Both the position numbers and the translations under genes were made by a program. A stretch of DNA of 64,000 nt from a bacterium. GTDB taxonomy: Bacteria > Patescibacteriota > Minisyncoccia > Phycocordibacterales > UBA5272. The DNA lies in contig JAHFNC010000004.1 in assembly GCA_023267535.1 (NCBI GenBank), forward strand, positions 3,757 to 67,756, read 5' to 3'. Shown piece after piece: positions 3,715 to 63,849 of the stretch. Numbering within the stretch: position 1 is the stretch's first letter; each line of letters opens with the position of its first letter. A model generated the notes under the pieces. The model worked only from the letters and a program-made list of their open reading frames with translations, was not told where the DNA came from and searched no databases.

Positions 3715-3717
3715 TTT

Positions 3718-4839
3718 ATGAAAAAAGAAAACTGGGAAATAAAAAGTTTTGAAGAATGTCTTGAAAAAGTTGTTTATACAAACAAAATTCAAAGAAAAGA
3801 TTTTCTTGATAATGGAAAGCATCCAGTAATTTCACAAGAGAAAGATTTTGTTAATGGGTACTGGGATAATTCTAAAGATTTATTTAAGGTTAGAAAACCA
3901 GTTATAATTTTTGGTGATCATACACAAGTCTTAAAATATGTAGATTTTGATTTTGTTCTTGGTGCTGATGGTGTAAAAATACTTCAGCCTACAAGTGAGC
4001 TAGAACCAAGATTTTTTTACTATTATTTACAAAACATAAATATTGGTAGTTTAGGATACGCAAGACATTACAGATTATTAAAAGAGAGTGAAGTAGAATT
4101 TCCAAAGTCTCTTTTAGAACAGCAACGCATAGTGTCAGTTTTAGATAAAGCATTCGTTGATATATCTAAAGCAAAAGATATTGCTGAACAGAATCTTAAA
4201 AATGCAAAAGAACTTTTTGAAAGTTATTTACAGAGTATGTTTACAAATAAAGGAGATGATTGGGAAGAGAAAACATTAGGCGGTATTGCTTTTGTAAAAA
4301 GTGGAGGAACTCCTTCAAGGTCTAAAAAAGAATACTGGACAGGTAAAATAGCTTGGTATTCGTCGGGTGAATTAAATAATTTGTACACCACAACGCCAGA
4401 AAGATATATTAACGATTTAGCAATTAGTAACTCAAATGCAAAAATCTTTCCAAAAGGTTCTCTTTTAATAGGTATGTATGATACTGCGGCTCTAAAAATG
4501 TCTATATTAGACAGAGACGGTTCTTTTAATCAAGCTATTGCAGGTGTAAAACCTAATGACAAAATTGACTTAACTTTTATTTTACACTCTATCAACTCTA
4601 TCAAACCAGAATTACTTAATTTAAGACGTGGTGTTCGTCAGAAAAATCTAAGTCTTGAAAAGATAAAAAGTATCCCTACCTATGTTCCTCCACTTCAAGT
4701 ACAGAAGAATGTTGTTTCTAAATTAGGAGAACTTTCCACTGAAACAAAAAAACTTGAAGCAATCTATGAACAAAAATTAAATGACTTAGAAGAACTTAAG
4801 AAAAGTATTCTTCAAAAGGTATTTAACGGCGAACTATAA
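3718..4839 (+). CDS. hsdS: Type I restriction-modification system, specificity subunit S
   Basis: 373 aa. Two target-recognition halves, each followed by a conserved helical spacer ('LLEQQRIVSVLDKAF...' and 'LQVQKNVVSKLGEL...'). Confidence 0.9.
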   Translation: MKKENWEIKSFEECLEKVVYTNKIQRKDFLDNGKHPVISQEKDFVNGYWDNSKDLFKVRKPVIIFGDHTQVLKYVDFDFVLGADGVKILQPTSELEPRFFYYYLQNINIGSLGYARHYRLLKESEVEFPKSLLEQQRIVSVLDKAFVDISKAKDIAEQNLKNAKELFESYLQSMFTNKGDDWEEKTLGGIAFVKSGGTPSRSKKEYWTGKIAWYSSGELNNLYTTTPERYINDLAISNSNAKIFPKGSLLIGMYDTAALKMSILDRDGSFNQAIAGVKPNDKIDLTFILHSINSIKPELLNLRRGVRQKNLSLEKIKSIPTYVPPLQVQKNVVSKLGELSTETKKLEAIYEQKLNDLEELKKSILQKVFNGEL

Positions 4840-4860
4840 AAGTGCTATAATGTCAAGATT

Positions 4861-7182
4861 ATGAACGAATCTGAAACAAGGGCAGAGCTAATTGATCCAA
4901 AGCTAAAAGCTTGTGGTTGGGGTGTTGTTGAAGGATCTAAAATACTCCGTGAATACAATATTACTGCTGGTAAAATCCAAACTGGAGGTATAAGAGGAAA
5001 GCTACTTACTGCTGATTATGTATTGGTCTACAAAGGCATAAAATTGGCTGTGGTTGAGGCAAAGAGTGCAAATATAGGAGTTGGTGAGGGTGTTGCACAA
5101 GCCAAGCAATATGCAGAGAAACTAAAAATAGAAACAACCTATTCTACAAACGGAAAAGAGATATACAGTATCTGTATGAAAACTGGTGTTGAGGGTTTGG
5201 TTTCTGGTTATCTCTCACCTGATGAACTTTGGAACAAAACTTTTTCGGTTCAAAATGAATGGAGAGAGAAATTTAGTTCTATTCCTTTTGAAGATAAGAG
5301 TGGCTCTTGGCAATTACGTTATTATCAAGAAATAGCAGTAAAGAATGTTCTTGAATATGTTGCAAATGATAGGGACCGCATTTTGCTCACCTTAGCTACT
5401 GGTACAGGTAAAACAGCTATCGCTTTTCAGATAGTATGGAAACTATTTCAGACAAGATGGAATTTAAAACGTGACGGTTCTCGTCGTCCTCGTATTTTAT
5501 TTTTAGCAGATAGAAACATATTAGCCGACCAAGCATACAACTCTTTTTCTTCATTTCCAGAAGATGCTTTGGTGCGTATTAATCCTAAAGAAATAAGTAA
5601 GAAAGGAAGTGTGCCTACTAATGGGTCTATTTTCTTTACTATCTTTCAAACCTTTATGAGTGGTAAAGATGCCGAGGGAAACCCTGCACCATACTTCGGA
5701 GAATATCCATCTGATTACTTTGATTTTATTATTATAGACGAATGTCATCGTGGCGGTGCAAACGATGAAGGAAACTGGAGAGGTATCTTGGAATATTTTT
5801 CTCCTGCTGTGCAATTAGGTTTAACAGCTACCCCAAAGCGTAAAGATAATGTCGATACATATAAATATTTTGGTGAGCCAGTATATATTTATTCTCTTAA
5901 AGAGGGTATTAATGATGGATTTCTTACACCTTTTAAGGTTAAGCGTATTAAGACAACATTAGACGATTATATTTATACAAGTGATGACCAAATCATCGAA
6001 GGGGAAATCGAGGAAGGAAAACTTTATACCGAACCTGATTTTAATAAGATAATTGAAATTAAAGCGAGAGAAGAAAAGCGTGTGAAGGTATTTATGGACG
6101 AAGCAAATCAAAATGAAAAAGCTATTGTCTTTTGTGCTACTCAAGATCATGCGGCTGCGGTTCGTGATTTAATTAATCAATACAAGAAAAGTGCTGATCC
6201 AAATTATTGTGTCCGTGTTACAGCAAATGATGGAGAGATAGGCGAACAATTTTTAAGAGAATTCCAAGATAACGAAAAAACTATACCAACTATTTTAACG
6301 ACATCACAGAAACTTTCAACTGGAGTAGATGCTAGAAATATACGTAACATTGTACTCATGCGACCAGTGAACTCTATGATTGAATTTAAGCAAATTGTAG
6401 GGCGTGGTACACGTTTATTTGATGGTAAGGAATTCTTTACTATTTATGACTTTGTGGATGCTTATCACCATTTTGCGGATCCTGAATGGGATGGAGAACC
6501 GATCAGTCCAGTAGATGATGAACCTACGGAACCTAAACCACCAAAAGGGGTAGAGGGTGAACCACCTTTTCCTCCAGAACCACCAACAGAACCAAATAAG
6601 AAACTTAAGATTAAATTACGAGATGGAAAAGAACGTGAAATACAACACATGATAGCAACTTCTTTTTGGGGTGCAGACGGTAAACCTATTTCTGTGGAAG
6701 AGTTTTTACAAAACCTGTTTGGGACACTGCCTAGTCTTTTTAAGGGTGAAGAAGAGTTGCGAGAGATATGGAGTAATCCAATAACAAGAAAAAGTTTGTT
6801 AGAAAAACTAGACGAGGCTGGGTATGGAAAAGACGAACTAACTACATTACAGAAATTAATTGACGCTGAAAATAGTGATCTTTTTGATGTGTTGGAATAT
6901 GTATTTAATAGTGACGTTAAACCGATACCAAGAGAGATAAGAGTAGAAACATCACAGGAAACTATTTTTGAATCCCTTAATGATAAACAAAAAGAATTTA
7001 TTGAATTTGTGTTGAGTAAATATATTGAAACAGGTGTAGAAGAATTAGACCAAGAGAAACTACCAATACTTCTTACTAATAAATATCAGTCGCTAGAAGA
7101 TGCAAAAGATACACTAGGTGATATTGATTTGATTCGTTCGATTTTCTTCAAATTCCAAGAGAAACTATACGCAAAAGTATAA
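4861..7182 (+). CDS. hsdR: Type I restriction enzyme, R (helicase/endonuclease) subunit, EcoEI-R-like
   Basis: 773 aa. N-terminal 'SETRAELIDPKL..GW' region. SF2 motifs 'LATGTGKT', 'IIIDECHRG', 'LGLTATP', 'QIVGRGTR'. Pro-rich linker, then a C-terminal domain resembling the EcoEI R C-terminus ('DLFDVLEYVF...'). Confidence 0.93.
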   Translation: MNESETRAELIDPKLKACGWGVVEGSKILREYNITAGKIQTGGIRGKLLTADYVLVYKGIKLAVVEAKSANIGVGEGVAQAKQYAEKLKIETTYSTNGKEIYSICMKTGVEGLVSGYLSPDELWNKTFSVQNEWREKFSSIPFEDKSGSWQLRYYQEIAVKNVLEYVANDRDRILLTLATGTGKTAIAFQIVWKLFQTRWNLKRDGSRRPRILFLADRNILADQAYNSFSSFPEDALVRINPKEISKKGSVPTNGSIFFTIFQTFMSGKDAEGNPAPYFGEYPSDYFDFIIIDECHRGGANDEGNWRGILEYFSPAVQLGLTATPKRKDNVDTYKYFGEPVYIYSLKEGINDGFLTPFKVKRIKTTLDDYIYTSDDQIIEGEIEEGKLYTEPDFNKIIEIKAREEKRVKVFMDEANQNEKAIVFCATQDHAAAVRDLINQYKKSADPNYCVRVTANDGEIGEQFLREFQDNEKTIPTILTTSQKLSTGVDARNIRNIVLMRPVNSMIEFKQIVGRGTRLFDGKEFFTIYDFVDAYHHFADPEWDGEPISPVDDEPTEPKPPKGVEGEPPFPPEPPTEPNKKLKIKLRDGKEREIQHMIATSFWGADGKPISVEEFLQNLFGTLPSLFKGEEELREIWSNPITRKSLLEKLDEAGYGKDELTTLQKLIDAENSDLFDVLEYVFNSDVKPIPREIRVETSQETIFESLNDKQKEFIEFVLSKYIETGVEELDQEKLPILLTNKYQSLEDAKDTLGDIDLIRSIFFKFQEKLYAKV

Positions 7183-7200: not shown

Positions 7201-9744
7201 TTAGATCATTCTTTTCTTTATGTTTCGTACAAGATCAGTGATTTCTTTCTTTGCAATATCAGGGATTTTAAATATAGAAACATCAGTTTTTAATAACCAT
7301 TCGGCACATTCCTTTCTATCATAATCCATACTTTCAATGTGGTTAGAAATTTCAATGGCTGTATGTCTACTTAGTCCGAGATTGATAAGAGAAACTTGGG
7401 TCCTTTCAAATACCCCAAACTCGAGCCACATATTTAAATCAGGGACGGAATCAAGAAACTCAGGGTGATTCATACTAAGATAATACTTTAAAATATCAAT
7501 ATAACATGAAGAATACTTTGCAAATTTAAACCTAACATATTCTTCTATATCCCCCATTGTGTTTCTGATAATTAGTGAAAGCTTTTTCTTGGGATCTCTA
7601 TTCTCCCAGTACCTAATATTAGACTTTATTATTCTAGCAAGTGGATATCCTCTCATCCAATTAGTTACTAGAATGGTGTAGTAAGGTGCGAGCGCTTCGT
7701 GGTCCCCAGAAAGAATTCTACTTATTCTTTTTATAATTGCTATGTAGCAATTAGACGCATCTAAATCGTCAGGTAAAACAGGAATTAGGTTTTTTATGTC
7801 ATCATCATAATTTACAAAATAATCAAAGAGTTTTTGTTGAGATATGGGGTTTATACCGGGATTTCTAAAAATTATATCATCTGGTATTTGAAGTGACTCT
7901 TTTACTTTTGAACACTCTACCTCAAGTTCATTAATGAAATCTTCGTCAAGAGGTTCATTTTTTAAGGAAGAGTTTTTAAGGAATTTTGTGAAATAATAAC
8001 TAAAAGCATATTCATGGTTAGAGCTAGAAGTTTCTTTAAAGTTACCTCTTATGTATTCAAGAAGATCAGTTTTATTTTCTGAAGCTTCAGTGATTGCTCT
8101 CTTAATAAAGTGCTTTGTTTTTTCTCTGATAGGTATATTATCCCAATCTTCAGGATCAATACATATAATATTTCCTTGAAATTCCTTTTTTAGGCGACCA
8201 GCTCGACCAGCGAGATTCCAAAAATCAGCTCCTGACATCGGTACTTTATTTCCTCTTTTTGGTTTTCTTATAAAAATTGATTTTGCTGGAAGGTTAACTC
8301 CTTCGAGAAGGGTTGAAGTACATACTAAGTATTTAATATGACCCTCAGAATATAATCTTTCAATTTCTTTTCTAATAACAAGTGGCATGTTGCCGTAATG
8401 AAAAGCAATCTTTCTTTCTAGAACTTTAGCTAAAGCATATTCTGGATGAATTAATTTCTTTATTAAATCAATCAATTCATTTATTTGATCATCTTCTGTT
8501 TCCTCTTTAGTTCCGACAAGATCAAAAAGTTTTTCTGAAGCATCTTCAGCATCTGCTTGTCCATTTACATATATCATGTTGCCACCTTCATTTGAACCAA
8601 GTAAGTAGCAAAAAGTAGACAGTTTTTCTTTTTCGTTTAAAGTTTGATTTAAGTTAATTTGCCCCAGTGGAGTAGATATATTTTTTAGACATAGGTTTAC
8701 GCTCCACTGCTTAGGGTGCCCCACTAATTGTGATACCCAAATTAAATTTTGATTTACGGCAATATATTCAGTAACTATAGTAGACCTATCTTCCTGGTTA
8801 CCTAAGCCATCCAGTAGAACCCCAGGGTTTTGAGAGAATGGACTACAGAATAGTATTTTTATGGCTGGTAGTCGAGTTGTAAGCTCTTCAATTTTTTGTT
8901 GTAAAAGAATACCTCTACCACCATCTCCAATTTTTTGAGCTTCGTCAATGACAAGAAAATCAATCTTAAAAGTGGGATTGTCACTTAGAAACCAATGTAA
9001 TCTTTCTTGCGTAAATATAAATAGAGATGGTTTGTTTAAGTCCATTTCATCAGGTGACTGAGGTACAGAACTTAGGTAAACAGAATAGTCTTCCTTATTA
9101 AACAATTGATCAGAAAAATCTTGCTCTACTTGATTGATAAGTGCTCTGGTAGGGACTATGTAGACAATATTTTTTGGATTCTTTTTGTCGTTTAGTTGCT
9201 CTAAAACAAAAGTATTTAGAATAAATGATTTTCCAGAAGAGGTTGGAGCAGAAGCACTTAAATAGTTTGAACTGTATGCTTTATCGTAAAAGTCTTTTTG
9301 AAATTTATTAAGATATATTGGCTCTTCATTTGTTTTTGTAAAAATGATATGTTCCACATCTCTTCTTGCATTTTCAATTTTAAAAGGTAACGGTATATCA
9401 TTATCGTAATCTGAAGGTAGATATTTCTTATGGATAGCAAGATTAATAGCTGGTTTGTTTGTTAACTTATGCAAAATGATAGATGCTCCAATTCTTTGGT
9501 TCTTCTTTGTTTCTGCATCTGTTAAACAACACTGGGCAATCCTTAATGCTGCATCTTGACAATCTGGGTTATCTGAATGTGATATTATACTTGCACACAT
9601 TAATAAATGATCCCAGTTTGGTATGTAAAATAAGTCAGATTGTTGATTTAAAATTGGGAAAAGTTTTATTACCGAATTTCTAATAATAGATAATAGGTCT
9701 TGTTGAAAGCTTTTTAAGTTATAAACTTTTTCAGGAAGGGTCAT
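7201..9744 (-). CDS. hamB: HamB-like SF2 (DEAQ-box) helicase, Hachiman-type defence
   Basis: 847 aa. Walker A 'SAPTSSGKSF', 'LVIDEAQK', 'CTSTLLEGVNLPA', 'LAGRAGR'. Its start overlaps the upstream DUF1837-like gene by 14 nt. Confidence 0.8.
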   Translation of the reverse strand: MTLPEKVYNLKSFQQDLLSIIRNSVIKLFPILNQQSDLFYIPNWDHLLMCASIISHSDNPDCQDAALRIAQCCLTDAETKKNQRIGASIILHKLTNKPAINLAIHKKYLPSDYDNDIPLPFKIENARRDVEHIIFTKTNEEPIYLNKFQKDFYDKAYSSNYLSASAPTSSGKSFILNTFVLEQLNDKKNPKNIVYIVPTRALINQVEQDFSDQLFNKEDYSVYLSSVPQSPDEMDLNKPSLFIFTQERLHWFLSDNPTFKIDFLVIDEAQKIGDGGRGILLQQKIEELTTRLPAIKILFCSPFSQNPGVLLDGLGNQEDRSTIVTEYIAVNQNLIWVSQLVGHPKQWSVNLCLKNISTPLGQINLNQTLNEKEKLSTFCYLLGSNEGGNMIYVNGQADAEDASEKLFDLVGTKEETEDDQINELIDLIKKLIHPEYALAKVLERKIAFHYGNMPLVIRKEIERLYSEGHIKYLVCTSTLLEGVNLPAKSIFIRKPKRGNKVPMSGADFWNLAGRAGRLKKEFQGNIICIDPEDWDNIPIREKTKHFIKRAITEASENKTDLLEYIRGNFKETSSSNHEYAFSYYFTKFLKNSSLKNEPLDEDFINELEVECSKVKESLQIPDDIIFRNPGINPISQQKLFDYFVNYDDDIKNLIPVLPDDLDASNCYIAIIKRISRILSGDHEALAPYYTILVTNWMRGYPLARIIKSNIRYWENRDPKKKLSLIIRNTMGDIEEYVRFKFAKYSSCYIDILKYYLSMNHPEFLDSVPDLNMWLEFGVFERTQVSLINLGLSRHTAIEISNHIESMDYDRKECAEWLLKTDVSIFKIPDIAKKEITDLVRNIKKRMI

Positions 9745-10714
9745 AGGTTATCCCAAGTGCCTCCAAGAAGTGCTTTCTAAACTCTTCCACAGAAGGAAAT
9801 GGAAGCAGAAAAACATGTATATCAAAAGTTTCAAGATTTGTATGTTTTGAAATATGTTTGACAACATTTTTTGACCAACCTTCTATTTCTTTGTTAATCT
9901 TTTCTTTTATTTGTTCAGTGGTTTCTGTGTTTGCAACGCTTGGGTATTTATCATAATCAAATCCAATGAGGCACACACCTTTATACCTTACCTGATTATG
10001 GAGAGGGTCGTCTTTGTCCAAATATTTTAATAGAGCAACTTCCAATCTCTCATCTATTACACTCAAGTTGTCCCTCATTAATTGTAAGTCTCTTTCTGCT
10101 GGAGCAGATATTCCTCCATCTGATAAAAGAAACTCTTTAAGACTTATGAAACATTTAGAGATGCCATCGTTTAAATCTTTGTACAGTTTTGATTCACCCC
10201 AATATAAAGATAGAATATCCCTTCCTTCTTCATTTAACTCCACAGAAACATGAATACCATCAGCTCCGTTCACATGGAGTTCTGGGTTTGTTTTTAATGG
10301 CATCTTACATAGTAGTTGGGGAATTTTTAGATACTCCTGAATAAGAATATAGAGAAGCATTTCACCACCTTCACCTGTCTTCTTTAGTGAAGTAAAAAGA
10401 CTTTTTGCTTTTTCAATAAGCTCGTAAGTTTTTGTGGTTGTGTTATGTTTTGTATCATATTCTTTTGCCACCTCATATTCTTTTCTTGGAATTGCATAAT
10501 CAGCTACATGCTTTGCCACAAAACGTGCAAAGTCCTTAGTGCGAGGTCTACCATTTCCGTCTAAAGTTAAAAAGTAACAATGTGAGGTTGCTTTAGTATC
10601 TTTTAAATTAACATTTGATATAACTTCAGTTATATAAGTATTTATTTCTTGTTTGCTTGTTCTCAGAAGATCAGCAATAAGTTCTGCAATATTATCTTGG
10701 TTAGCAGTAGTCAT
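9731..10714 (-). CDS. hamA: DUF1837 / HamA-like PD-(D/E)xK nuclease, Hachiman-type defence
   Basis: 327 aa. 'GEGGEMLLYIL' and 'NGADGIHV...(21 aa)...YWGESKLY' (D152...E174-x-K176), as I recall for DUF1837. Coupled to the helicase gene. Confidence 0.72.
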   Translation of the reverse strand: MTTANQDNIAELIADLLRTSKQEINTYITEVISNVNLKDTKATSHCYFLTLDGNGRPRTKDFARFVAKHVADYAIPRKEYEVAKEYDTKHNTTTKTYELIEKAKSLFTSLKKTGEGGEMLLYILIQEYLKIPQLLCKMPLKTNPELHVNGADGIHVSVELNEEGRDILSLYWGESKLYKDLNDGISKCFISLKEFLLSDGGISAPAERDLQLMRDNLSVIDERLEVALLKYLDKDDPLHNQVRYKGVCLIGFDYDKYPSVANTETTEQIKEKINKEIEGWSKNVVKHISKHTNLETFDIHVFLLPFPSVEEFRKHFLEALGITYDPS

Positions 10715-11200: not shown

Positions 11201-11263
11201 ATACTCATTTTAGCATAAAACAATAAATCTTTCATTTACGCAAGAGTGATGACTTAAAAATCT

Positions 11264-11289
11264 AAAAAGCACCCGAAAGGGTGCTTTTT
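11264..11289 (-). terminator. Rho-independent terminator (bidirectional shape) ending the tRNA-Gln transcript
   Basis: A5-GCACCC-gaaa-GGGTGC-T5. Confidence 0.7.
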
Positions 11290-11382
11290 AGATTTGGCTG
11301 GCTACACTCAGTAGCTATGCAGTAACTGTATAGAGCTCTCATACGTTTCGACGCTCTCCGAGCGCCAGAACTGCGCTCGCAT
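11290..11382 (-). other. GC-rich structured spacer between tRNA-Gln and its terminator (possible small RNA)
   Basis: Minus-strand hairpins CGAGCGC-agttctg-GCGCTCG and GCTAC-tgagt-GTAGC, plus an AGAGCTCT palindrome. Visibly more GC-rich than its surroundings. Not a cloverleaf. Confidence 0.3.
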
Positions 11383-20325: not shown

Positions 20326-20331
20326 GAATTG

Positions 20332-20895
20332 ATGAATGAGGAAGAAATTTTAATATCATTTTTTACGGAAAATAAAAGAATGCCAACATACGAAGAGATG
20401 AAAGGTCTCTTCGGTGTGGCTTCAAAAAACACTGTGGCTTTCAGAGTAAATAAATTATTAGAAAATGGTTTCTTGATTAAGAAAGGAAGTAAAATTGCTC
20501 TTGCTCAATCTGGCTCAGTTGTGAGATTGGGAACTGTTCAAGCTGGATTTCCAACTACTGCAGACGAAGATGTCGTATCCGAGTTATTATCACTTGATGA
20601 TTTTTTAATAGAAAGAAAGAGTTCAACATATATGTTGGAAGTGGTTGGTGAATCAATGAAAGATGCCGGAATAATTGAAGGCGACTTGGTTTTAGTAGAA
20701 AGAGGAAAGACTCCACGTCGTGGAGATATAGTTCTAGCACTTGTTGATAATGAATACACGCTGAAATATTTAGAAACAGAAAAAGGAAAACCAGTGCTTG
20801 TGCCAGCCAATAAATTATTTAAGAAAATCTATCCAAACCCAAACAAATTAAAAATCGAAGCAGTTTTAAAAGCAGTAATTAGAAAATATAGATAA
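20332..20895 (+). CDS. lexA: LexA repressor (S24 peptidase)
   Basis: wHTH N-terminus, cleavage-site region 'VQAGFP', catalytic Ser context 'VVGESMKDAG' and Lys context 'EYTLKYL'. Confidence 0.9.
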   Translation: MNEEEILISFFTENKRMPTYEEMKGLFGVASKNTVAFRVNKLLENGFLIKKGSKIALAQSGSVVRLGTVQAGFPTTADEDVVSELLSLDDFLIERKSSTYMLEVVGESMKDAGIIEGDLVLVERGKTPRRGDIVLALVDNEYTLKYLETEKGKPVLVPANKLFKKIYPNPNKLKIEAVLKAVIRKYR

Positions 20896-20899
20896 ACAT

Positions 20900-21477
20900 A
20901 TGAAATTATTTAACATCACAATTACAATACAGAGCTCCATAAAAAACGACGAGCCAGTTTACAAAAATGAACTAATAAGTAGACACATTAATTTCGCTTC
21001 AAAACTTACTCAACTTTCTAGATTATAAATAACTATTTCAAATATATGTCACCATCACCACGCGCCATAATACAAATAAGCACAACAGGAAAGAATTTTT
21101 CTCGTATAAATTATAGTCGTCGCATGTATGCCGTCATTAGACGTTATACACCGGACGTGGCTGAGGGTAATATAAATGAATGCTTTGCTGATATAACCGG
21201 ACTTCGCACTTTCTTTAAAATGTCATACAAAGAATTGGCAGAAAAAATTCTTAAAGATTTAAATAAAGAAATTGGTGTGCAATTTACAATCAGAATTACT
21301 TCAATGAAAGCCTTTCAAAATGCAAAAACTAACAGTAGAAACTCCAAGAGTATTTCTACTTACAAAGAATTAAACAAACTTTTTGCCGGACTATCATTTG
21401 TTGAAGCCAAAAATCGTAAAAGCTTAATTAGTAGAAGAAGAAAATTTGCCGTACCATTTATTGGTAAGGTTGCATAA
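20900..21477 (+). pseudogene. decayed Y-family DNA polymerase (DinB/UmuC-like) relic
   Basis: Two frames. 20900-21028: 'LFNITITIQSSIKNDEPVYKNE', compare '..IDMD.FFASVE....P.L.gk'. 21046-21477: 'YSRRMYAVIRRYTPDVAEGNINECFADITGL', compare 'Y...S..i..i...yt..vE..SiDEafLDvTg'. Has a frameshift, internal deletions, a missing thumb/little finger, and substituted catalytic acids. Confidence 0.65.
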
Positions 21478-33003: not shown

Positions 33004-34872
33004 ATGTCAAAGATTATTGGTATTGATTTGGGAACAACAAACTGTGCTGTGGCCATCATAGAAGGAGGACAGCCGAAAATAATAGAAAATGTTGAGGGTA
33101 ATAGAACTACCCCTTCTGTTGTTTCTGTAAATAAAAATGGTGAAAGATCTGTGGGTCTTATCGCTAAGCGTCAAGCCGTAACCAACGCCAAAGATACTAT
33201 TTACGGAGTAAAGCGCTTCATGGGACATTCTTTTAAAGATAAGGAGGTTCAAAATGACATTCCTAATGTAGCGTATGGTATTAAGGAAGGAGATAACGGC
33301 GGAACATTAATCACACTTTCCGGGAAAGATTATCGTCCAGAAGAAATTTCAGCAATGATTTTACAAAAAATAAAAGCTGATGTAGAGGCTAAACTTGGAG
33401 AAAAAATCACTGAAGCGGTGATAACTGTTCCTGCATATTTTAATGATACACAACGTCAAGCAACAGTAGACGCCGGAAAAATTGCCGGCCTTGATGTTAA
33501 AAGAATTATTCCTGAACCGACAGCAGCCGCTCTTGCATATGGTTTTAACTCACAAAAAAATGAAAAGCTGGCTGTCTTTGATTTTGGTGGAGGCACATTT
33601 GATATTTCTATTTTAGAAGTAGGGGATGGGGTGGTTGAAGTAAAATCAGTTGATGGTGACTCTCACCTTGGAGGACGTGACATTGACCAAAAGTTTGTTC
33701 AATTTATCGCATCTGAATTTAAAAAAGAATCAGGTATTGATATTACAGCTGACCCATTAGCACTTCAGAGATTAGATGAGGCCGCAGAAAAAGCAAAACA
33801 CGAACTTTCAACTCAATTAGAAACCGAAATAAATCTTCCGTTTATTACATCAGACGCTAATGGTCCAAAGCACTTGGTTATTAAGGTAACAAGAGCGTCA
33901 CTTGAAAATATTGCAAAAGAATTTATAGATAGAGCTTTAGTTATTACACAAAGAGCGTTGGACAATTCTCCATTTAAAAAAGAAGAAATACATGAAATTA
34001 TTATGGTTGGCGGACAAACCAGAATGCCAATGATTGTTGAAGCTGTTAAAAATCTTTTTGGAAAAGAACCAAACCGAACAATTAACCCAGATGAAGTGGT
34101 AGCGCTCGGCGCCGCTGTTCAAGCTGGAGTTCTTCAAGGTGATGTAAAGGATGTTTTACTTTTGGATGTCATTCCGCTTTCACTTGGGATTGAAACCATG
34201 GGTGGAGTTTCTACAAAACTTGTTGAGAAAAACATGACTATACCAACATCAAAGTCACAAATATTTTCAACCGCTGCTGATAATCAGACTTCAGTTGAAA
34301 TTCATATCGTTCAAGGAGAGCGTCCGATGGCTACAGATAACAAATCACTAGGTAGATTTATTCTAGACGGTATTCCACCTGCGCCTCGTGGTATGCCTCA
34401 AGTGGAAGTAACTTTTGATGTTGACGCTAATGGCATACTACAAGTAAAAGCAAAAGATAAAACCAGTGGAAAAGAACAATCAATTCGCATAGAAGCCTCA
34501 TCTGGTTTAACTGATGAGGATATCAAGAAGATGCAACAAGATGCTGAAGCTCATGCCGAAGAAGATAAAAAGAAAAGGGAGTTGGCTGAAGAGAAAAATA
34601 TGTCAGATGCTTTAGTTCATACCGCCGAGAAAGCACTTAAAGAGGCTGAGGGTAAAATAGGAGATGATGTAAAGAAAGAAATTGAAGATAAAATAAATGC
34701 TTTAAGAACTGCTCGTAATGGTGAAGATGTATCTTTGATTAAATCTTCGGCCGAGGAATTATCTGCTTCTATGATGAAAATAGGTGAAGCTATGCAAAAA
34801 GCACAATCGGAATCAAATACTACTGAAACAAACACAGAAAATACAAACCCTACTGACGAAAATAAAGGATAA
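33004..34872 (+). CDS. dnaK: chaperone DnaK (Hsp70)
   Basis: '[13 protein letters not shown]', 'DLGGGTFD' and 'VGGQTRMP'. Confidence 0.98.
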
Positions 34873-34910
34873 AATACTTAGGAACTTGTTGCGAAGTATT
34901 TTATCCTTTT
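34867..34910 (+). terminator. Rho-independent terminator of dnaK
   Basis: 13-bp stem GGATAAAATACTT / AAGTATTTTATCC (34867-34879 and 34894-34906) followed by T4. It overlaps the dnaK stop codon. Confidence 0.7.
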
Positions 34911-48824: not shown

Positions 48825-50120
48825 ATGAAGATGAGCTCTTTTCAAAAATCAATATTTTTATTTGTGACATCATTTTTTTTGATGGCTAATGTCTATGGAG
48901 CAACAGTAGATGAAATGAAAGCAAGCATCGATGATATAACTCAAAAAATACAAACTCTTGATAAAGAAATAGCTCAGTACAATAAACAAATAAGCCAAAC
49001 TCAAGGACAAGCTAAGACGTTGAAACAAGCGATTACTAATCTAGAAGTTAGGCGTGCTGCTTTACTTAAGGAAATAGATAAGACTAAATTAAATATTACT
49101 AAAACTGAAGATGATATATCTAAAACACAATCAAAAATTTCTGTAACTCAACAAAAAATAAATAATAACAATCTTTCGTTGGCTGAAATTATAAGGGGAA
49201 TTAATCAACAGGAAAATTCAGCCCCACCTATGCTGGGAATACTAGAAAAGAACAGTAGTATTTCTTCTGCTTTAGATGTTGTTAAAAGAAGCACTGATGT
49301 AAGTAATGCCGTAAATGAAAAAATTAGAAATCTACAGGATGCTAAAGTTGATTTAAGCAACACTAAACAAGAATTTGAGGTGCATAAGAAACAGCTTATT
49401 GACCTTAATAAAAATCTTTCTGACCAAAAACAATTAGTTGAACAAACTAAAGCTGATAAGAATCAATTGCTTTCTGAAACTAAAAATAAAGAAAGCGAAT
49501 ACCAAAAACTTTTAGCCGACAGAAAACAAAAGAAGGATCAAATGGAATCTGAATTAGGAGACATCGAATCGAAATTAACAGCTGCTGTTGATTTAAGTAA
49601 ACTTCCATCCTATGGAAGTGGAGCTCTTCATTATCCTGTTGATGTTGTAAAAATTACCCAGTACTTCGGTAACACTCCATTTGCTACCAAGAACCCACAA
49701 GTATATAACGGTATGGGACATAACGGTGTAGATTTTGGAACACATGTCGGAACCGTTGTGTATTCCGCAGCCGATGGCATTGTAGCTGGTACAGGAAACA
49801 CAGACGCTGGTTGTGTTGGCGTATCTTATGGAAAATGGGTTCTAATCCGTCACAACAACGGATTGTCTACTTTATACGCTCACTTATCAGTTATAGATGT
49901 AACAGCAGGTCAATCGGTTACAACGCATCAAAGAATTGCGCTATCTGGCAATACTGGTTACAGTACTGGTCCTCATGTTCACTTTACGGTATACGCTTCT
50001 TCAGCTGTTCATATAACAAGTCCAACAGAATATAAAAGTAAAGTTTGTGGAACTTATATGATAATGCCTATTGCTCCACGAGATGCTTACCTTAATCCTT
50101 TAACTTATTTGCCTCAATAG
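48825..50120 (+). CDS. coiled-coil M23 family metallopeptidase (EnvC-like murein endopeptidase)
   Basis: Signal peptide, long coiled coil, 'HNGVDF', 'LYAHLS' and 'GNTGYSTGPHVHF'. Confidence 0.9.
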   Translation: MKMSSFQKSIFLFVTSFFLMANVYGATVDEMKASIDDITQKIQTLDKEIAQYNKQISQTQGQAKTLKQAITNLEVRRAALLKEIDKTKLNITKTEDDISKTQSKISVTQQKINNNNLSLAEIIRGINQQENSAPPMLGILEKNSSISSALDVVKRSTDVSNAVNEKIRNLQDAKVDLSNTKQEFEVHKKQLIDLNKNLSDQKQLVEQTKADKNQLLSETKNKESEYQKLLADRKQKKDQMESELGDIESKLTAAVDLSKLPSYGSGALHYPVDVVKITQYFGNTPFATKNPQVYNGMGHNGVDFGTHVGTVVYSAADGIVAGTGNTDAGCVGVSYGKWVLIRHNNGLSTLYAHLSVIDVTAGQSVTTHQRIALSGNTGYSTGPHVHFTVYASSAVHITSPTEYKSKVCGTYMIMPIAPRDAYLNPLTYLPQ

Positions 50121-50145: not shown

Positions 50146-50241
50146 ATGATAACTTTTACTATTCCGGCCTTCATATTGATAATTCTTACAGTTCTCATTA
50201 TAGGAACAATAACTGGCGCTTTGTTTATCTTGAAAAAATAA
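50146..50241 (+). CDS. possible 31-aa single-TM micropeptide
   Basis: Hand translation gives MITFTIPAFILIILTVLIIGTITGALFILKK*. No further support. Confidence 0.25.
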   Translation: MITFTIPAFILIILTVLIIGTITGALFILKK

Positions 50242-50270
50242 AATCATAACTAGTAAGATAACCTAAAATG

Positions 50271-50408
50271 ATACATAATAACGCTTTTTATTATATAGAG
50301 TCGTAAAGTACCGTTGTAAGACATTTTAGGGATCTTAATGTCTTACAACGGCTACAATCTTTTACGACAATACATAATAAGAGTTTTTGTTATGTATTGT
50401 CGTAAAAG
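50271..50408. repeat. composite repeat: two ~38-nt direct repeats flanking a perfect 15-bp hairpin
   Basis: DR1 at 50271-50308 and DR2 at 50370-50408 match at 31/39 positions by hand alignment, with a 99-nt period. Hairpin 1: CCGTTGTAAGACATT (50311-50325) / AATGTCTTACAACGG (50337-50351). Hairpin 2: ACGACAATACATAA (50364-50377) / TTATGTATTGTCGT (50390-50403). Confidence 0.8.
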
Positions 50409-50543
50409 ATATATTGTGCGACATTGCCTATATAAATCCCCCGATACGAAAACCTTGAAAACTAGACAACTTTACTTAGCGTCATAAATAACATTTTAAA
50501 ATAATTTACAAACAAGCTTTCTCTTACCCTTTCAATCGTCAGA

Positions 50544-51305
50544 CTAATTACTAGAATTCTGATTCCTCCATTCATATAACACCACCGCCGTTGCTACTGA
50601 CGCATTCAAAGACTCACACAATGGATTTGTTTTGATTGATATCTTAAAATCACACATTTCAAGTGTTTTAAGTCTTATACCAGACCCCTCTTTACCTATA
50701 ACCAAAACTGTAGGACTATCAAATTTTGTTTTATTTAATTCTGTGTCACCGTCGCCAGCTAAACCATAAATCCAAAATTGTTTTTCCTTTAACTTTTCAA
50801 GTGTATTGTTTATATTTCCAATTCTGACAATTGGTATAGCAAAGTTCATGCCAGAAGCTGTCTTGATTACCGTTGTAGTTACTTGTGTTTGATCATGCTC
50901 AGGCATAAGAATTGCATCGGCTCCGAAAGCGACAGCACTACGAATTATAGCTCCGACATTATGAGGATCTTCTAATTCATCAAGCAACACGAAAAGTGGA
51001 TTACCCTCTTTGGTTTTTATTTTTTCTAAAATAAAATCTAAATCTGAATACAAAGATTTATTGTTAAGTAATGCACACACACCTTGGTGTAAAACTTCTT
51101 TCCCTGACATACTTTCTATCTCACTTCCTGTAACTACTTCATAAGAAATTTTATTACTCTGAACAAGGCTAATTATTTCTGGATTACTCTCTGATTGTTT
51201 GGTTAGATATAATTTTTCTATTATATGACTATTATCTCGCTTTTGAGCAAAAATAGCCTCTTTTAAAGGGTTTTTGCCACATAAATAGACTTTATTGGTG
51301 TTCAT
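50544..51305 (-). CDS. rlmB: SpoU/TrmH-family RNA 2'-O-methyltransferase (RlmB-like)
   Basis: N-terminal substrate-binding domain, 'DPHNVGAIIRSA', and the C-terminal knot 'SLNASVATAVVLYE'. Confidence 0.88.
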   Translation of the reverse strand: MNTNKVYLCGKNPLKEAIFAQKRDNSHIIEKLYLTKQSESNPEIISLVQSNKISYEVVTGSEIESMSGKEVLHQGVCALLNNKSLYSDLDFILEKIKTKEGNPLFVLLDELEDPHNVGAIIRSAVAFGADAILMPEHDQTQVTTTVIKTASGMNFAIPIVRIGNINNTLEKLKEKQFWIYGLAGDGDTELNKTKFDSPTVLVIGKEGSGIRLKTLEMCDFKISIKTNPLCESLNASVATAVVLYEWRNQNSSN

Positions 51306-58385: not shown

Positions 58386-58880
58386 ATGACACAACTGATT
58401 ACAAAAATAAACATTGCTCATCTAGCGTCGCTTGCAAAAATTCCCAAAAAAGAATTACCAATTTCTTCACTCAAGAATAAATCAGCTCCCCTTCCATTTG
58501 ACGCAGAAAAAAGAGAGTCTGTCATCCGTGCACTTTTTCGTGTAAGAAATTTTTGCACTGAAGAGTTAGGAAGAGGAACTTTAATCTTTAATGAAAAAAT
58601 GTTGAACATCGGACTGCAATTCGCAAATTTATCACTTCATCATCTCAAACAAAACCAAAATGAGGATGATATTCTTCTTGAAAATTTTTTGGATGAATAT
58701 AAATACATACTTAAGAACTTGCGAATGATTGATGTGGAAAAAGTAAGTGACGCTATCCCCTTCTGGAAAACAGGTGCGAGCCGCGCAGAATTTAGGCGCA
58801 GCGCAAATGTTTCTGTTGGCGGTAAAGCACATCCGACTTTTCTTCTTTTTCTTTTACCACGCACATTACAAGAGCTGTAA
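58386..58880 (+). CDS. hypothetical protein (164 aa)
   Basis: ORF with a downstream terminator. No motif. Confidence 0.4.
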   Translation: MTQLITKINIAHLASLAKIPKKELPISSLKNKSAPLPFDAEKRESVIRALFRVRNFCTEELGRGTLIFNEKMLNIGLQFANLSLHHLKQNQNEDDILLENFLDEYKYILKNLRMIDVEKVSDAIPFWKTGASRAEFRRSANVSVGGKAHPTFLLFLLPRTLQEL

Positions 58881-58884
58881 AACT

Positions 58885-58908
58885 AAACGCGACAACAAGT
58901 CGCGTTTT
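58885..58908. terminator. bidirectional Rho-independent terminator
   Basis: AAACGCGAC-aacaa-GTCGCGTTT followed by a T-run. Confidence 0.7.
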
Positions 58909-58913
58909 ATTTT

Positions 58914-63294: not shown

Positions 63295-63570
63295 ATGGCA
63301 ACAAGAAAAGCCGCTGGTTCGGCAAAAAACCTAAAAGATAGTAAGCCAAAATACCTAGGTACAAAGCTCTACGCTGGAGAAACTGCAATGGCTGGTAATA
63401 TTATCGTTCGTCAAAGAGGAACAAAAATAATGGCCGGCAAAAATGTTGGTGTTGGAAAAGATCACACTCTTTACGCACTAAAGACAGGTAAAATTAAATT
63501 CACTGAAAAAAGAAAAGTTGGATTTGATGGATCTTGGAAGAAAAAGAAAGTAGCAAACATTGAGCTATAA
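63295..63570 (+). CDS. rpmA: 50S ribosomal protein L27
   Basis: '[22 protein letters not shown]....[26 protein letters not shown]'. Confidence 0.95.
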
Positions 63571-63606
63571 AATTAAAACTCACCATTATAATGGTGAGTT
63601 TTAATT
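63571..63606. terminator. bidirectional terminator, 16-bp perfect stem
   Basis: AATTAAAACTCACCAT-tata-ATGGTGAGTTTTAATT between the convergent rpmA and rhodanese genes. Confidence 0.75.
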
Positions 63607-63849
63607 TATGTCTTTTAATCCTCCTAAATTTTTTGCATTCACGTACCCTAAGCCCTTTAAAATTTTTGTAGCTACCCCTGCTCTTCCACCCGCCATACAA
63701 TAACAGCCAATATCTTCGTCTTTTTTAATTTTGGAAATTTCTCCCAAGTCTCCTTTTATAATTTGCTCTATTGGAATATTTATTGCTCCTTCTGCATGTT
63801 TACTTTTATATTCCTCTTTTGTTCTGACGTCAATTAAAATTTGGCTCAT
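63601..63849 (-). CDS. single-domain rhodanese-like sulfurtransferase
   Basis: 'LIDVRTKEEY' and the active-site loop 'CYCMAGGRAG'. Confidence 0.85.
   Translation of the reverse strand: MSQILIDVRTKEEYKSKHAEGAINIPIEQIIKGDLGEISKIKKDEDIGCYCMAGGRAGVATKILKGLGYVNAKNLGGLKDIN

What the first reader, a model, noticed from the sequence alone, without database searches (positions are those of the whole stretch)
50241..50543. 300-nt intergenic region of nested inverted and direct repeats at a convergent strand switch
Coding polarity switches here. Genes from 19.5 to 50.1 kb are almost all on the plus strand, and genes from 50.5 to 63.3 kb are almost all on the minus strand.

The gap contains:
- Two ~38-nt direct repeats (50271-50308 and 50370-50408) matching at 31/39 positions, 99 nt apart.
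- A perfect 15-bp hairpin between them (50311-50351).
- A perfect 14-bp hairpin formed by the second repeat (50364-50403).

The segment CTTTTACGAC (50359-50368) can pair either with the upstream GTCGTAAAG (50300-50308) or within the second hairpin, so the structures are mutually exclusive. Neither hairpin has a proper U-tract.

Possible explanations are a small structured RNA or switch, a miniature inserted element with duplicated flanks, or a recombination or replication-terminus-associated site. A weak dif-like stretch lies at 50397-50424.
Basis: seen in the sequence. Interest (0 to 1): 0.55.

Follow-up and report, generated by a model that had tools for sequence, protein, structure and literature searches.

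The report
Terminus dif site with hairpin insert
This gap is the replication terminus of a tiny Patescibacteria genome: it holds the chromosome-dimer-resolution (dif) site that is letter-for-letter conserved across the phylum, and next to it sits an unusual 99-base gene-less insert made of dif look-alike hairpins.

Summary
The repeats and hairpins are real and non-random.

**The dif site (about 0.9).**
- Its 24-nt core is exactly conserved in at least 120 Patescibacteria species, one copy each, and the flanks diverge immediately.
- Genes converge on it in 54 of 56 loci.
- GGGNAGGG switches polarity there: 67:1 on the left, 3:53 on the right.
- The window's GC-skew maximum lies about 0.6 kb away.
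- Filamentous prophages in oral Saccharibacteria are flanked by it.
- I conclude it is the phylum's Xer/dif site at the replication terminus.

**The other repeats (shown).**
- They are copies of the dif arms: a crippled direct pseudo-dif (5-nt spacer), an inverted pseudo-dif (11-nt spacer), and an inverted copy of the left arm.
- Together they form hairpins 1 and 2.
- Two of the closest relatives found have the same flanks but lack exactly these 99 nt, cut at the left-arm/central boundary.
- One relative carries two different units in tandem. Others carry decayed units.

**Origin of the insert (about 0.5).** I infer a miniature, gene-less, Xer-dependent insertion with the layout of an integrated CTX-phage attP hairpin. 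A local palindromic triplication or a host accessory structure remain possible. A small RNA, a switch or plain terminators are not supported.

The parts
48825..50120 (+). M23 peptidase gene, last large gene of the plus-strand (left) replichore
   Evidence: ORF. Pfam Peptidase_M23 in called genes. Synteny M23 - small ORF - dif is shared with L005, L006, L130, L134, L135, L172, L173 and L175.
50146..50241 (+). 31-aa hydrophobic small ORF (MITFTIPAFILIILTVLIIGTITGALFILKK), last plus-strand coding sequence before the terminus
   Evidence: Translation. Homologous small ORF in L006. A matching reading frame, not translated here, is also visible in the sequences shown for L005, L130, L134 and L135, and a more divergent one in L172/L173.
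50271..50298 (.). hp0: imperfect 11-6-11 palindrome ATACATAATAA CGCTTT TTATTATATAG. Its 3' half plus the following GTCGTAAA is the original chromosomal left flank of dif.
   Evidence: D2, I16. TATATAGAGTCGTAAA is identical to the dif left flank of relatives L172 and L173, which have no insert.
50298..50324 (+). Direct pseudo-dif: left-arm copy GAGTCGTAAAG (50298-50308), 5-nt spacer TACCG (50309-50313), right-arm-like TTGTAAGACAT (50314-50324)
   Evidence: Read and printed. Found by the arm-spacer-arm scan. The same site is conserved in L006, L130, L134, L135 and L143.
50311..50351 (.). Hairpin 1: perfect 15-bp stem with an 11-nt loop. The stem is the right-arm-like sequence plus 3 spacer bases, paired with its inverted copy.
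   Evidence: Across 6 homologous units, 5 of 15 pairs change on both sides and 92% of cells stay paired.
50338..50370 (-). Inverted pseudo-dif: ATGTCTTACAA (50338-48), 11-nt spacer CGGCTACAATC (50349-59, ending in ATC as in the bottom strand of dif), TTTTACGACAA (50360-70, the exact reverse complement of the dif left arm)
   Evidence: The 3' half of the unit HMM weakly matches dif itself in reverse orientation in many loci.
50357..50410 (.). Hairpin 2: 24-nt arms with 1 mismatch and a 6-nt loop. The outer 12 bp are the inverted left arm plus ATC, paired with the true dif left arm plus GAT. The inner 12 bp are a hypervariable palindrome.
   Evidence: The inner stem differs completely between relatives but always pairs.
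50308..50406 (.). 99-nt unit absent from two of the closest relatives found. Its boundaries are ambiguous within the shared GTCGTAAA. The left junction falls at the left-arm/central-region boundary.
   Evidence: Window sequence compared with L172 and L173, which read TATATAGA-GTCGTAAAAGATATATTGTGCGACATT with related-looking right flanks.
50397..50424 (+). dif core: TTGTCGTAAAA (left arm 50397-50407), GATATA (central 50408-50413), TTGTGCGACAT (right arm 50414-50424)
   Evidence: Unique in the window at up to 3 mismatches. The 24-mer is exact in at least 120 species, 19 metagenome loci and 17 IMG/VR contigs. Genes converge on it in 54 of 56 loci. GGGNAGGG polarity switches there. It flanks inovirus-like prophages.
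50544..51305 (-). rlmB (SpoU-family rRNA methyltransferase), first gene of the minus-strand (right) replichore

Best explanation
The gap is the replication terminus of a Paceibacteria-type (Patescibacteria) chromosome.

**dif site (shown, about 0.9).** 50397-50424 is the chromosome's dif site. It has two 11-bp imperfectly symmetric arms around a 6-bp centre. By analogy with other bacteria (inferred), Xer-family tyrosine recombinases resolve chromosome dimers there, guided by FtsK reading GGGNAGGG-type polar motifs that converge on it.

**What the repeats are (shown).** They are extra copies of the dif arms. In order they are:
- a direct pseudo-dif with a 5-nt spacer;
- a loop;
- an inverted pseudo-dif with an 11-nt spacer;
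- a short palindrome;
- the intact dif.

This direct-inverted-direct arrangement produces hairpin 1, hairpin 2 and the alternative pairing. The 99 nt between the two GTCGTAAA left-arm copies are missing from two of the closest relatives found, exactly at the arm/centre boundary.

**Origin of the insert (inferred, about 0.5).** The unit was put there, and can be removed, by the host Xer machinery. It acts as a gene-less miniature relative of the CTX-phage type of IMEX.
- As a single strand, the two inverted pseudo-sites fold into a dif-mimicking stem with an unpaired centre.
- One strand exchange at the left-arm boundary inserts it.
- That regenerates an intact dif on the right and leaves a crippled pseudo-dif on the left.
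For: **dif site**
- The 24-nt core is exact in at least 120 different species assemblies spanning Saccharibacteria, Paceibacterota, Nomura-, Yonath-, Campbell- and Zambryskibacteria. There is one hit per assembly, including contigs of 0.5-0.97 Mb.
- Conservation collapses outside about 28-30 bp.
- The site has 11-6-11 architecture, with arms 8/11 symmetric. It matches E. coli dif at 16/28 and B. subtilis dif at 17/28.
- Long ORFs converge on it in 54 of 56 loci and diverge in none.
- GGGNAGGG counts are 67 forward to 1 reverse on the left and 3 to 53 on the right.
- The window's G-C maximum is at 49839 and the gene strand switch lies at 50241/50544.
- Inovirus-like prophages (Zot ATPase, RCR Rep) of 5.1-5.9 kb are bounded by a perfect dif and by a second site with a foreign left arm followed by GATATA-TTGTGCGAC.
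- A XerC/D-family ORF lies about 570 nt from the module and dif in L129.

**The insert**
- Half-site anatomy is read directly from the sequence.
- The same unit occurs in L006, L130, L134, L135 and L143. It is always directly 5' of dif and never elsewhere in about 1 Mb of loci.
- The hairpin 1 stem is kept through changes on both sides in 5 of 15 pairs.
- Other Paceibacteria lineages show the same architecture with different stems, and a spacer half that co-varies between the direct and inverted copies: CCG/CGG, GGGA/TCCC, CCAGA/TCTGG.
- Empty sites in L172 and L173 have the same flank, TATATAGA-GTCGTAAA.
- L134 carries an L135-type unit plus a second, different unit inserted at the arm/centre boundary. 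Their flanks are 94% identical.
- L005 and L114 carry decayed units next to an intact dif.
- The layout matches the published description of an integrated CTX prophage: a new dif plus inverted attP2/attP1, with a folded attP(+) that has an unpaired overlap region and a single XerC strand exchange (PMC3442271).
Against: - No Xer or FtsK gene lies in the 64-kb window, so the cognate enzyme is not shown for this genome.
- Similarity to classical dif is only 16-17 of 28.
- The unit has no genes, no recognisable replication origin and no known vehicle.
- No free or viral copy was found in IMG/VR.
- No kb-sized element with this hairpin-type site was seen in about 140 loci.
- A CTX-type integration does not by itself predict the 37-nt duplication of flank plus left arm (hp0 resembling the inner part of hairpin 2) seen here and in L078. 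That needs an extra step, either tandem gain followed by partial loss or a snap-back copy.
- The direction of the 99-nt difference (gain here versus loss in L172/L173) is not polarised.
- The first bases of the 5-nt spacer would pair poorly with dif after strand exchange.
Confidence: 0.65

Rival explanations
1. Local palindromic triplication. A snap-back or template-switch event at the quasi-palindromic dif region made a direct-inverted-direct triplication of flank plus dif, of the kind described as a tandem inversion duplication. The two extra copies were then inactivated by spacer changes. The structure would be a replication-error fossil with no mobility.
For: - The arrangement is almost symmetric. 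The centres of hp0, hairpin 1 and hairpin 2 are 46.5 and 52.5 nt apart (coordinates).
- Flank plus left arm is duplicated, 81% in direct and 76% in inverted orientation (D2, I1). The same is seen in L078.
- The unit has no genes, and no free or viral copy was found.
- Decayed copies exist in L005 and L114.
Against: - Units in six divergent genomes share derived features that are not in dif: spacer GTACC, arm TGTAAGACATT, spacer GGCTAC. So they were not each copied from the local dif.
- The spacer halves of the direct and inverted copies co-vary between lineages.
- L134 has a second, heterologous unit of the same family in tandem, which a local copy cannot give.
- The difference from L172/L173 is precise at the arm/centre boundary.
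Confidence: 0.2
2. Host-encoded accessory architecture. The extra recombinase-binding arms and the extrudable hairpins would be a selected part of the dif locus in some Paceibacteria. Possible roles are to load or sequester Xer, to impose directionality as the accessory sequences of cer and psi do, or to protect dif from phage integration.
For: - The unit is always on the left-arm side, immediately next to dif.
- Pairing and half-sites are maintained over roughly 35-40% protein divergence while the neighbouring intergenic DNA is unalignable.
- The same architecture recurs in several lineages.
Against: - It is present in only about 10 of 123 species loci.
- It is absent from close relatives L172, L173 and L175 and decayed in L005 and L114, all with an intact dif, so it is dispensable.
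- Tandem heterologous units, as in L134, are not expected for a fixed regulatory site.
Confidence: 0.15
3. Ordinary RNA-level elements. The hairpins would be intrinsic terminators of the convergent M23/small-ORF and rlmB transcripts, or a small structured RNA or attenuator with alternative folds.
For: - The region is very stably folded on both strands.
- A lenient scan calls hairpin 2 terminator-like.
- No other terminator is evident between the two convergent genes.
Against: - There is no Rfam family, only sub-threshold miRNA-hairpin noise.
- Canonical terminators elsewhere in this genome and in relatives have GC-rich stems flanked by A and T runs, for example 11258-11295 and 58879-58913. Neither hairpin here has these.
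- The invariant parts are exactly the Xer arms, and hairpin 2 is built on the dif left arm itself.
- G.T pairs show no strand bias, 31 against 29.
- In the output as displayed (part of it was cut), the other loci show dif without these hairpins.
Confidence: 0.05

Closest known systems
dif / XerCD (and single-recombinase XerS, XerH, XerA) chromosome-dimer-resolution sites
   Same: - 28-bp site with two 11-bp inverted arms and a 6-bp centre.
- One copy per chromosome.
- Located at the skew and gene-orientation switch.
- Conserved over a whole phylum with unconserved flanks.
- Polar G-rich octamers converge on it.
- Exploited by integrating phages.
   Different: - The sequence matches E. coli dif at only 16/28 and B. 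subtilis dif at 17/28.
- The arms are more symmetric (8/11), so a single recombinase is possible.
- The recombinase for this genome is not identified.
- I found no description of this site in the searchable literature.
CTX-phi type IMEX: folded attP(+) hairpin integrated at dif by one XerC strand exchange (PMC3442271)
   Same: - Two dif-like sites in inverted orientation whose single strand folds into a stem with both binding arms and an unpaired centre.
- The insertion point is at the left-arm/centre boundary.
- The product is a hybrid crippled site, then the inverted site, then the element, then a new intact dif.
- Tandem arrays occur.
   Different: - The 'element' between the inverted site and the new dif is only 13-44 nt, a palindrome, instead of a phage genome of about 7 kb.
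- It has no genes.
- No free form or vehicle is known.
- Flank plus arm is duplicated in two lineages.
- Xer dependence is untested.
Filamentous-phage IMEX with double-stranded attP (VGJ-phi / TLC-phi type) and the inovirus-like prophages found here at the same dif in oral Saccharibacteria (L157-L164)
   Same: They use the same 28-bp site, are bounded by direct dif-like repeats, and form tandem arrays.
   Different: - Those elements are 5-6 kb and have Zot and Rep genes.
- Their second site keeps the centre and right arm but has a foreign left arm.
- The window's unit keeps the left arm and has a foreign centre and right arm.
- They contain no inverted site pair.
Tandem inversion duplications / quasi-palindrome template switching
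   Same: Direct-inverted-direct order, with long palindromes at both junctions and duplicated flank.
   Different: The family-specific derived sequence shared across genomes, the co-varying spacers and the heterologous tandem unit are not explained by a local copying error.
Acinetobacter pdif modules
   Same: Xer-type sites alternate in orientation along the DNA.
   Different: Those modules are kb-sized, gene-carrying and on plasmids. Here the segments between sites are 11-44 nt and lie on the chromosome, at dif itself.

Membership tests
dif (Xer chromosome-dimer-resolution site) | About 28 bp: two 11-bp imperfect inverted arms separated by a 6-8-bp central region | tested here: met
   The site reads TTGTCGTAAAA GATATA TTGTGCGACAT, with arms 8/11 symmetric.
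dif (Xer chromosome-dimer-resolution site) | Single copy per chromosome | tested here: met
   Unique in the 64-kb window at up to 3 mismatches. There is one exact hit in each of 120 different assemblies, including contigs of 514-972 kb. The whole genome of this organism was not available.
dif (Xer chromosome-dimer-resolution site) | Lies at the replication terminus (GC-skew sign change, convergence of co-oriented genes) | tested here: met
   The window's skew changes sign here and the cumulative maximum is at 49839. The ORF strand switch is at 50241/50544. ORFs converge in 54 of 56 related loci and diverge in none. Skew runs + to - in 21 loci and - to + in 2.
dif (Xer chromosome-dimer-resolution site) | Core conserved across related taxa while flanks are not | tested here: met
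   The 24/24 core is exact across classes of Patescibacteria. Base frequencies fall to background beyond about 3 nt on either side.
dif (Xer chromosome-dimer-resolution site) | FtsK-orienting polar sequences converge on the site | tested here: met
   Pooled over 142 loci, GGGNAGGG is 67:1 (forward:reverse) on the left and 3:53 on the right. In this AT-rich window there is only one copy, correctly oriented, which is uninformative on its own. FtsK itself was not examined.
dif (Xer chromosome-dimer-resolution site) | Cognate Xer-family tyrosine recombinase encoded by the same genome | tested here: inconclusive
   None was found among the 43 ORFs of 120 aa or more that were searched or carried stored Pfam annotations, covering all 51 except 8 antisense or unexamined ones. 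A XerC/D-family ORF (TIGR02224, E 7.5e-59, truncated) lies about 570 nt from the module next to dif in the related locus L129.
dif (Xer chromosome-dimer-resolution site) | Supports site-specific recombination | not testable with these tools
   The support is indirect only. Inovirus-like prophages are bounded by dif and a hybrid dif. There is also a precise 99-nt presence/absence at the arm/centre boundary.
dif (Xer chromosome-dimer-resolution site) | Resemblance to the canonical dif consensus | tested here: inconclusive
   16/28 to E. coli dif and 17/28 to B. subtilis dif. The reference sequences were recalled from memory.
IMEX, CTX-phi type (folded attP) | Integrated at dif, bounded by a dif-like site on one side and an intact dif on the other, in direct orientation | tested here: met
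   The pseudo-dif is at 50298-50324 and dif at 50397-50424.
IMEX, CTX-phi type (folded attP) | Two dif-like sites in inverted orientation that fold into a stem with both arms and an unpaired central region | tested here: met
   50298-50324 pairs with 50338-50370. The arm stems are 9 and 15 bp, with a 2-nt against 7-nt internal loop. The pairing is conserved across 6 units.
IMEX, CTX-phi type (folded attP) | Precise presence/absence polymorphism with the junction at the arm/central boundary; tandem arrays | tested here: met
   Empty sites are seen in L172 and L173. A heterologous tandem is seen in L134.
IMEX, CTX-phi type (folded attP) | Carries genes (replication, morphogenesis or cargo) and has an extrachromosomal form | tested here: not met
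   The unit is 99 nt with no ORF. No copy was found in IMG/VR. No kb-sized element with this site type was seen in about 140 loci. It is therefore not filed as a phage IMEX, only as working like one.
IMEX, CTX-phi type (folded attP) | Integration depends on host Xer recombinase | not testable with these tools
   This needs biochemistry or genetics.
Rho-independent terminator | GC-rich stem followed by a U-tract | tested here: not met
   Hairpin 1 has no T-run. Hairpin 2 passes only a lenient scan, with 4 GC pairs out of 20. Canonical terminators elsewhere in the window look different.
Described RNA family (Rfam) | Match at or above the family gathering score | tested here: not met
   There was no hit in the gap at gathering thresholds. 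In E-value mode the best hit is 29.6 bits against a gathering score of 86, in miRNA hairpin models.
Dispersed repeat (MITE / REP-like) | Many copies scattered in the genome | tested here: not met
   There are no other copies in the window. The unit HMM hits only positions directly 5' of dif in about 1 Mb of related loci.

The most novel reading that the evidence does not exclude
The roughly 100-nt units are autonomous-looking 'nothing but attachment site' DNA parasites of the dimer-resolution machinery.
- As a circle, the whole unit would fold into one continuous rod. That rod consists of the inner palindrome, the left-arm duplex, an unpaired centre, the right-arm duplex and a loop.
- The rod would mimic dif and be inserted, excised and stacked in tandem at dif by the host Xer recombinase alone.
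- This would make them the smallest IMEX known and a DNA analogue of viroid-like minimal replicons. They may spread through the natural DNA uptake of these episymbionts.
Probability: 0.25. Interest if true: 0.85.

Novelty: new variant of a known kind. Interest (0 to 1): 0.6.

Why it matters
- **A marker for MAGs.** Patescibacteria genomes come almost entirely from metagenomes. A single invariant 24-28-nt terminus marker, together with the GGGNAGGG polarity, gives a direct way to orient and close MAGs, check mis-binning, anchor ori/ter growth-rate estimates and find Xer-exploiting prophages.
- **Phage integration.** The same site is shown here to be an integration hotspot for filamentous phages in oral Saccharibacteria.
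- **The hairpin units.** If they are Xer substrates, Xer hijacking would extend from phages and islands to gene-less 100-nt DNA. That would provide a minimal natural system for studying recombination between folded single-stranded and double-stranded DNA.

Tried and rejected
- **Xer site inside the direct repeat.** I first read the 11-6-11 palindromes within the direct repeat (ATACATAATAA-N6-TTGTTATGTAT) as the Xer site. I rejected this because that sequence is not conserved in any relative.
- **Conserved structured RNA.** I next read the conservation between the window and L006 as a structured RNA. I rejected this when the 24-mer proved invariant with unconserved flanks in 120 species, no Rfam match appeared and there was no strand bias in G.T pairs.
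- **Same-species contigs.** L001-L004 were 100% identical and therefore uninformative.
- **rlmB homologues.** They mostly sit in a different context, so synteny on that side did not help.
- **IMG/VR scan for inverted-arm hairpins.** It returned only chance matches inside coding sequence. Scans for the unit's own sequence found nothing.
- **A second dif-like site within 8 kb (classical IMEX) in Paceibacteria loci.** None was convincing.
- **A Xer gene in the window.** None was found.
- **Literature.** Searches for a described Patescibacteria or Saccharibacteria dif, or for the motif itself, found nothing.
- **Alignment of the empty sites.** MAFFT placed the L172/L173 flank against the dif-proximal copy. 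By eye the distal copy matches better (16/16 against 13/16), so the argument rests on the raw sequences.
Full report
**1. The observation**

The features are in the sequence as described.
- The direct repeat is 50271-50307 and 50370-50406: 37 nt, 81% identical, 99 nt apart.
- Hairpin 1 has perfect 15-nt arms at 50311-50325 and 50337-50351.
Its 24-nt arms (50357-50380 and 50387-50410) carry one mismatch, and it is the longest short-range inverted repeat in the window.
- The 303 nt fold far better than shuffles on both strands, with z = -7.05 and -6.24.
- Long ORFs are almost all on + from 19.5 kb to 50241 and on - from 50544.
- GC skew changes sign here. The cumulative G-C maximum is at 49839.

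**2. The organism and same-species contigs**

Flanking proteins place the window in Patescibacteria, of the Paceibacterota/Nomurabacteria type. Same-species contigs are identical across the gap and so gave no information.

**3. What the core is**

A relative about 70% identical in RlmB (L006) carries a homologous structure downstream of its M23 peptidase gene and small ORF, with a 27-nt block identical to the window.
- Each hit comes from a different assembly and each assembly has one hit. These include contigs of 514-972 kb.
- By record titles, the hosts span Saccharibacteria/Saccharimonadales, Paceibacterota, Nomura-, Yonath-, Campbell- and Zambryskibacteria.
- Outside about 28-30 bp the sequence is unrelated between species.
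- The site reads TTGTCGTAAAA / GATATA / TTGTGCGACAT. This is an 11-6-11 layout with arms 8/11 symmetric. It matches E. coli dif at 16/28 and B. subtilis dif at 17/28 (reference sites recalled from memory).

The genomic position fits a terminus site.
- In 54 of 56 loci with at least 2 kb on each side, long ORFs converge on the site. They diverge in none.
- Pooled over 142 loci, the octamer GGGNAGGG (the E. coli KOPS consensus, from my own knowledge) is 67 forward to 1 reverse on the left and 3 to 53 on the right.
- The 28-mer is unique in the window.

There is independent functional evidence from phages.
- The 24-mer occurs in 17 IMG/VR contigs of oral, TM7-like composition.
- In six contigs of 9-11 kb it bounds a 5.1-5.9 kb segment. 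In the one contig annotated (L162), that segment encodes a Zot-type ATPase and a rolling-circle Rep.
- The other end of that segment is a hybrid site with a foreign left arm followed by GATATA-TTGTGCGAC. Different phage types sit in tandem.
- This is the classical signature of elements that exploit Xer recombination.
- A XerC/D-family ORF lies about 570 nt from the module next to dif in L129.

I conclude with about 0.9 confidence that 50397-50424 is the dif site at the replication terminus. I found no description of this site in the searchable literature.

**4. What the repeats are**

Reading the gap in units of dif arms:

| Coordinates | Element | Sequence |
|---|---|---|
| 50298-50324 | Direct pseudo-dif, 5-nt spacer | GAGTCGTAAAG TACCG TTGTAAGACAT |
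| 50338-50370 | Inverted pseudo-dif, 11-nt spacer | ATGTCTTACAA CGGCTACAATC TTTTACGACAA |
| 50371-50396 | Inner palindrome | (hypervariable between relatives) |
| 50397-50424 | dif | TTGTCGTAAAA GATATA TTGTGCGACAT |

- Hairpin 1 is the right-arm-like sequence paired with its inverted copy.
- Hairpin 2 is the inverted left arm plus ATC, paired with the true left arm plus GAT, and extended by the inner palindrome.
- The "mutually exclusive" pairing exists simply because there are three copies of the left arm.

**5. Comparative evidence on the unit**

Distribution and conservation:
- About 10 of 123 species loci have an inverted left arm 24-49 nt upstream of dif.
- A metagenome scan for that arrangement gave 19 more loci.
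- Six genomes (window, L006, L130, L134, L135, L143) share a clearly homologous unit with the spacers GTACC and GGCTAC and the arm TGTAAGACATT.
- Its HMM hits only positions directly 5' of dif and nowhere else in about 1 Mb.
- In hairpin 1, 5 of 15 pairs change on both sides while 92% of cells stay paired.
- The loops and the inner palindrome of hairpin 2 are unrelated between genomes, yet the palindrome always pairs.
- Other Paceibacteria lineages have the same architecture with other stems. In them, part of the direct spacer is complementary to part of the inverted spacer (CCG/CGG, GGGA/TCCC, CCAGA/TCTGG). The inverted spacer always carries 2-5 extra bases plus ATC.
- G.T pairs show no strand bias, 31 against 29. 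This argues for DNA-level palindromes rather than an RNA.

Gain, loss and decay:
- L172 and L173 are among the closest relatives by M23 peptidase (63-65% identity) and share the M23 - small ORF - dif arrangement; L172 also has the convergent rlmB, while the L173 contig ends before that point.
- They read ...TATATAGA-GTCGTAAAAGATATATTGTGCGACATT..., with related-looking right flanks.
- The window reads ...TATATAGA-GTCGTAAA[99 nt]AGATATATTGTGCGACATT. The difference is therefore a precise 99-nt block at the left-arm/centre boundary.
- L175 also lacks the unit.
- L005 and L114 carry recognisable but decayed units beside an intact dif.
- L134, whose flanks are 94% identical to L135, has the right part of an L135-type unit. 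This is followed, at the arm/centre boundary, by a second unit of the same family with a different loop and inner palindrome.

**6. Mechanism**

Shown:
- The site is at the terminus.
- The repeats are dif-arm copies in direct-inverted-direct order.
- The unit is dispensable.
- It is gained or lost precisely at the arm/centre boundary.
- It can be stacked in tandem.

Inferred (about 0.5): the unit is inserted and removed by the host Xer machinery, like a miniature CTX-type IMEX.
- For CTX phage, the published description is that the replicative form carries two inverted XerC/XerD site pairs. In the single strand these fold into attP(+), whose overlap region has unpaired bases. XerC exchanges a single pair of strands with dif. 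The prophage ends up flanked by a new dif and the inverted attP2/attP1 pair, often in tandem (PMC3442271).
- The window's layout is the same, with 26 nt in place of the phage genome.
- The 5-nt spacer of the left hybrid site would make it a poor substrate. That would explain why the unit is stable.
- The ATC kept next to the inverted left arm matches the three centre bases that an invading dif strand would pair with.

Not explained by this model alone: the 37-nt duplication of flank plus left arm, in which hp0 resembles the inner part of hairpin 2. This is also seen in L078.
- It fits a tandem gain followed by loss of the distal unit's left part. The L172/L173 state would then be one precise excision away.
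- It also fits a snap-back copying event.

**7. Rivals**

- Local palindromic triplication fossil: about 0.2.
- Host accessory structure: about 0.15.
- Terminators or a small RNA: about 0.05.

The evidence for and against each is set out in the rival-explanations section.

**8. Novelty and score**

A dif site at a terminus is expected biology. Three things appear to be new:
- the identity and extreme conservation of the Patescibacteria site, together with its KOPS-like polarity;
- its use by filamentous prophages in oral Saccharibacteria;
- above all, the gene-less hairpin units stacked against it.

I rate this a new variant of a known kind, with interest 0.6.

Noticed in passing
L157, L159, L160, L162, L163, L164 (IMG/VR contigs); e.g. 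L162:2300-8512: Inovirus-like prophages of 5.1-5.9 kb are integrated at the Patescibacteria dif in oral Saccharibacteria-like DNA. In L162 they encode a Zot-type ATPase, a rolling-circle Rep and a DUF2726 protein. They are bounded by a perfect dif and by a hybrid site with a foreign left arm. At least two phage types occur in tandem or alternative arrays.
   Followed up: partly
142 dif loci pooled (L005-L147 and the window): GGGNAGGG is almost perfectly polar around dif: 67:1 on the left and 3:53 on the right. Runs such as GGGCAGGGG pile up within about 300 nt to the left, and CCCC runs within about 250 nt to the right. This looks like a KOPS system identical in consensus to that of E. coli.
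   Followed up: partly
window 50146-50241; L006:19383-19484; L174 and L175 downstream of M23: A roughly 31-33-aa very hydrophobic ORF (MITFTIPAF...) follows the M23 peptidase gene in many relatives. It is present as two tandem paralogues in L174 and L175. Its function is unknown.
   Followed up: partly
window 7201-10714 (-): A Hachiman-type defence pair: HamA (PF08878, E 4e-63) next to a DEAD/Helicase_C protein that resembles HamB.
   Followed up: no
window 1184-7182 (+): A type I restriction-modification operon (HsdM, HsdS, HsdR) with a PIN_12-domain gene inserted between hsdM and hsdS.
   Followed up: no
L005:10771-20084 and L006:10755-18810: In two relatives, about 8-9 kb lie between rlmB and dif. 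This segment encodes an FAD oxidoreductase, an RND efflux pump (ACR_tran), a YknX-like protein, MarR and hypothetical proteins. In the window, rlmB abuts dif. The terminus-proximal region is therefore a hotspot of gene content change.
   Followed up: partly
L129:3-884 (-): A XerC/XerD-family tyrosine recombinase gene lies about 570 nt from the module next to dif. This recalls the xerS/difSL and xerH/difH linkage. It was seen in only one locus.
   Followed up: partly
window 63570-63607, 34864-34909, 11258-11295: Other long palindromes. 63570-63607 is a perfect 19+19-nt palindrome with no loop. 34864-34909 has 22-nt arms at the end of dnaK. 11258-11295 is a textbook bidirectional terminator beside tRNA-Gln.
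   Followed up: no
L023 and L106 (GTDB records titled Pseudomonadales and Bdellovibrionales): Contigs in MAGs labelled as non-Patescibacteria carry the exact Patescibacteria dif 24-mer. They are probably mis-binned or mis-labelled, so the motif could serve as a contamination check.
   Followed up: no
window 20329-21477 (+); also L005:4374-5536 and L006:5740-6885: A conserved pair: an S24 (LexA/UmuD-like) peptidase followed by a short 143-147-aa ORF that matches only part of the Y-family polymerase IMS domain. It may be a truncated or split mutagenesis cassette.
   Followed up: no
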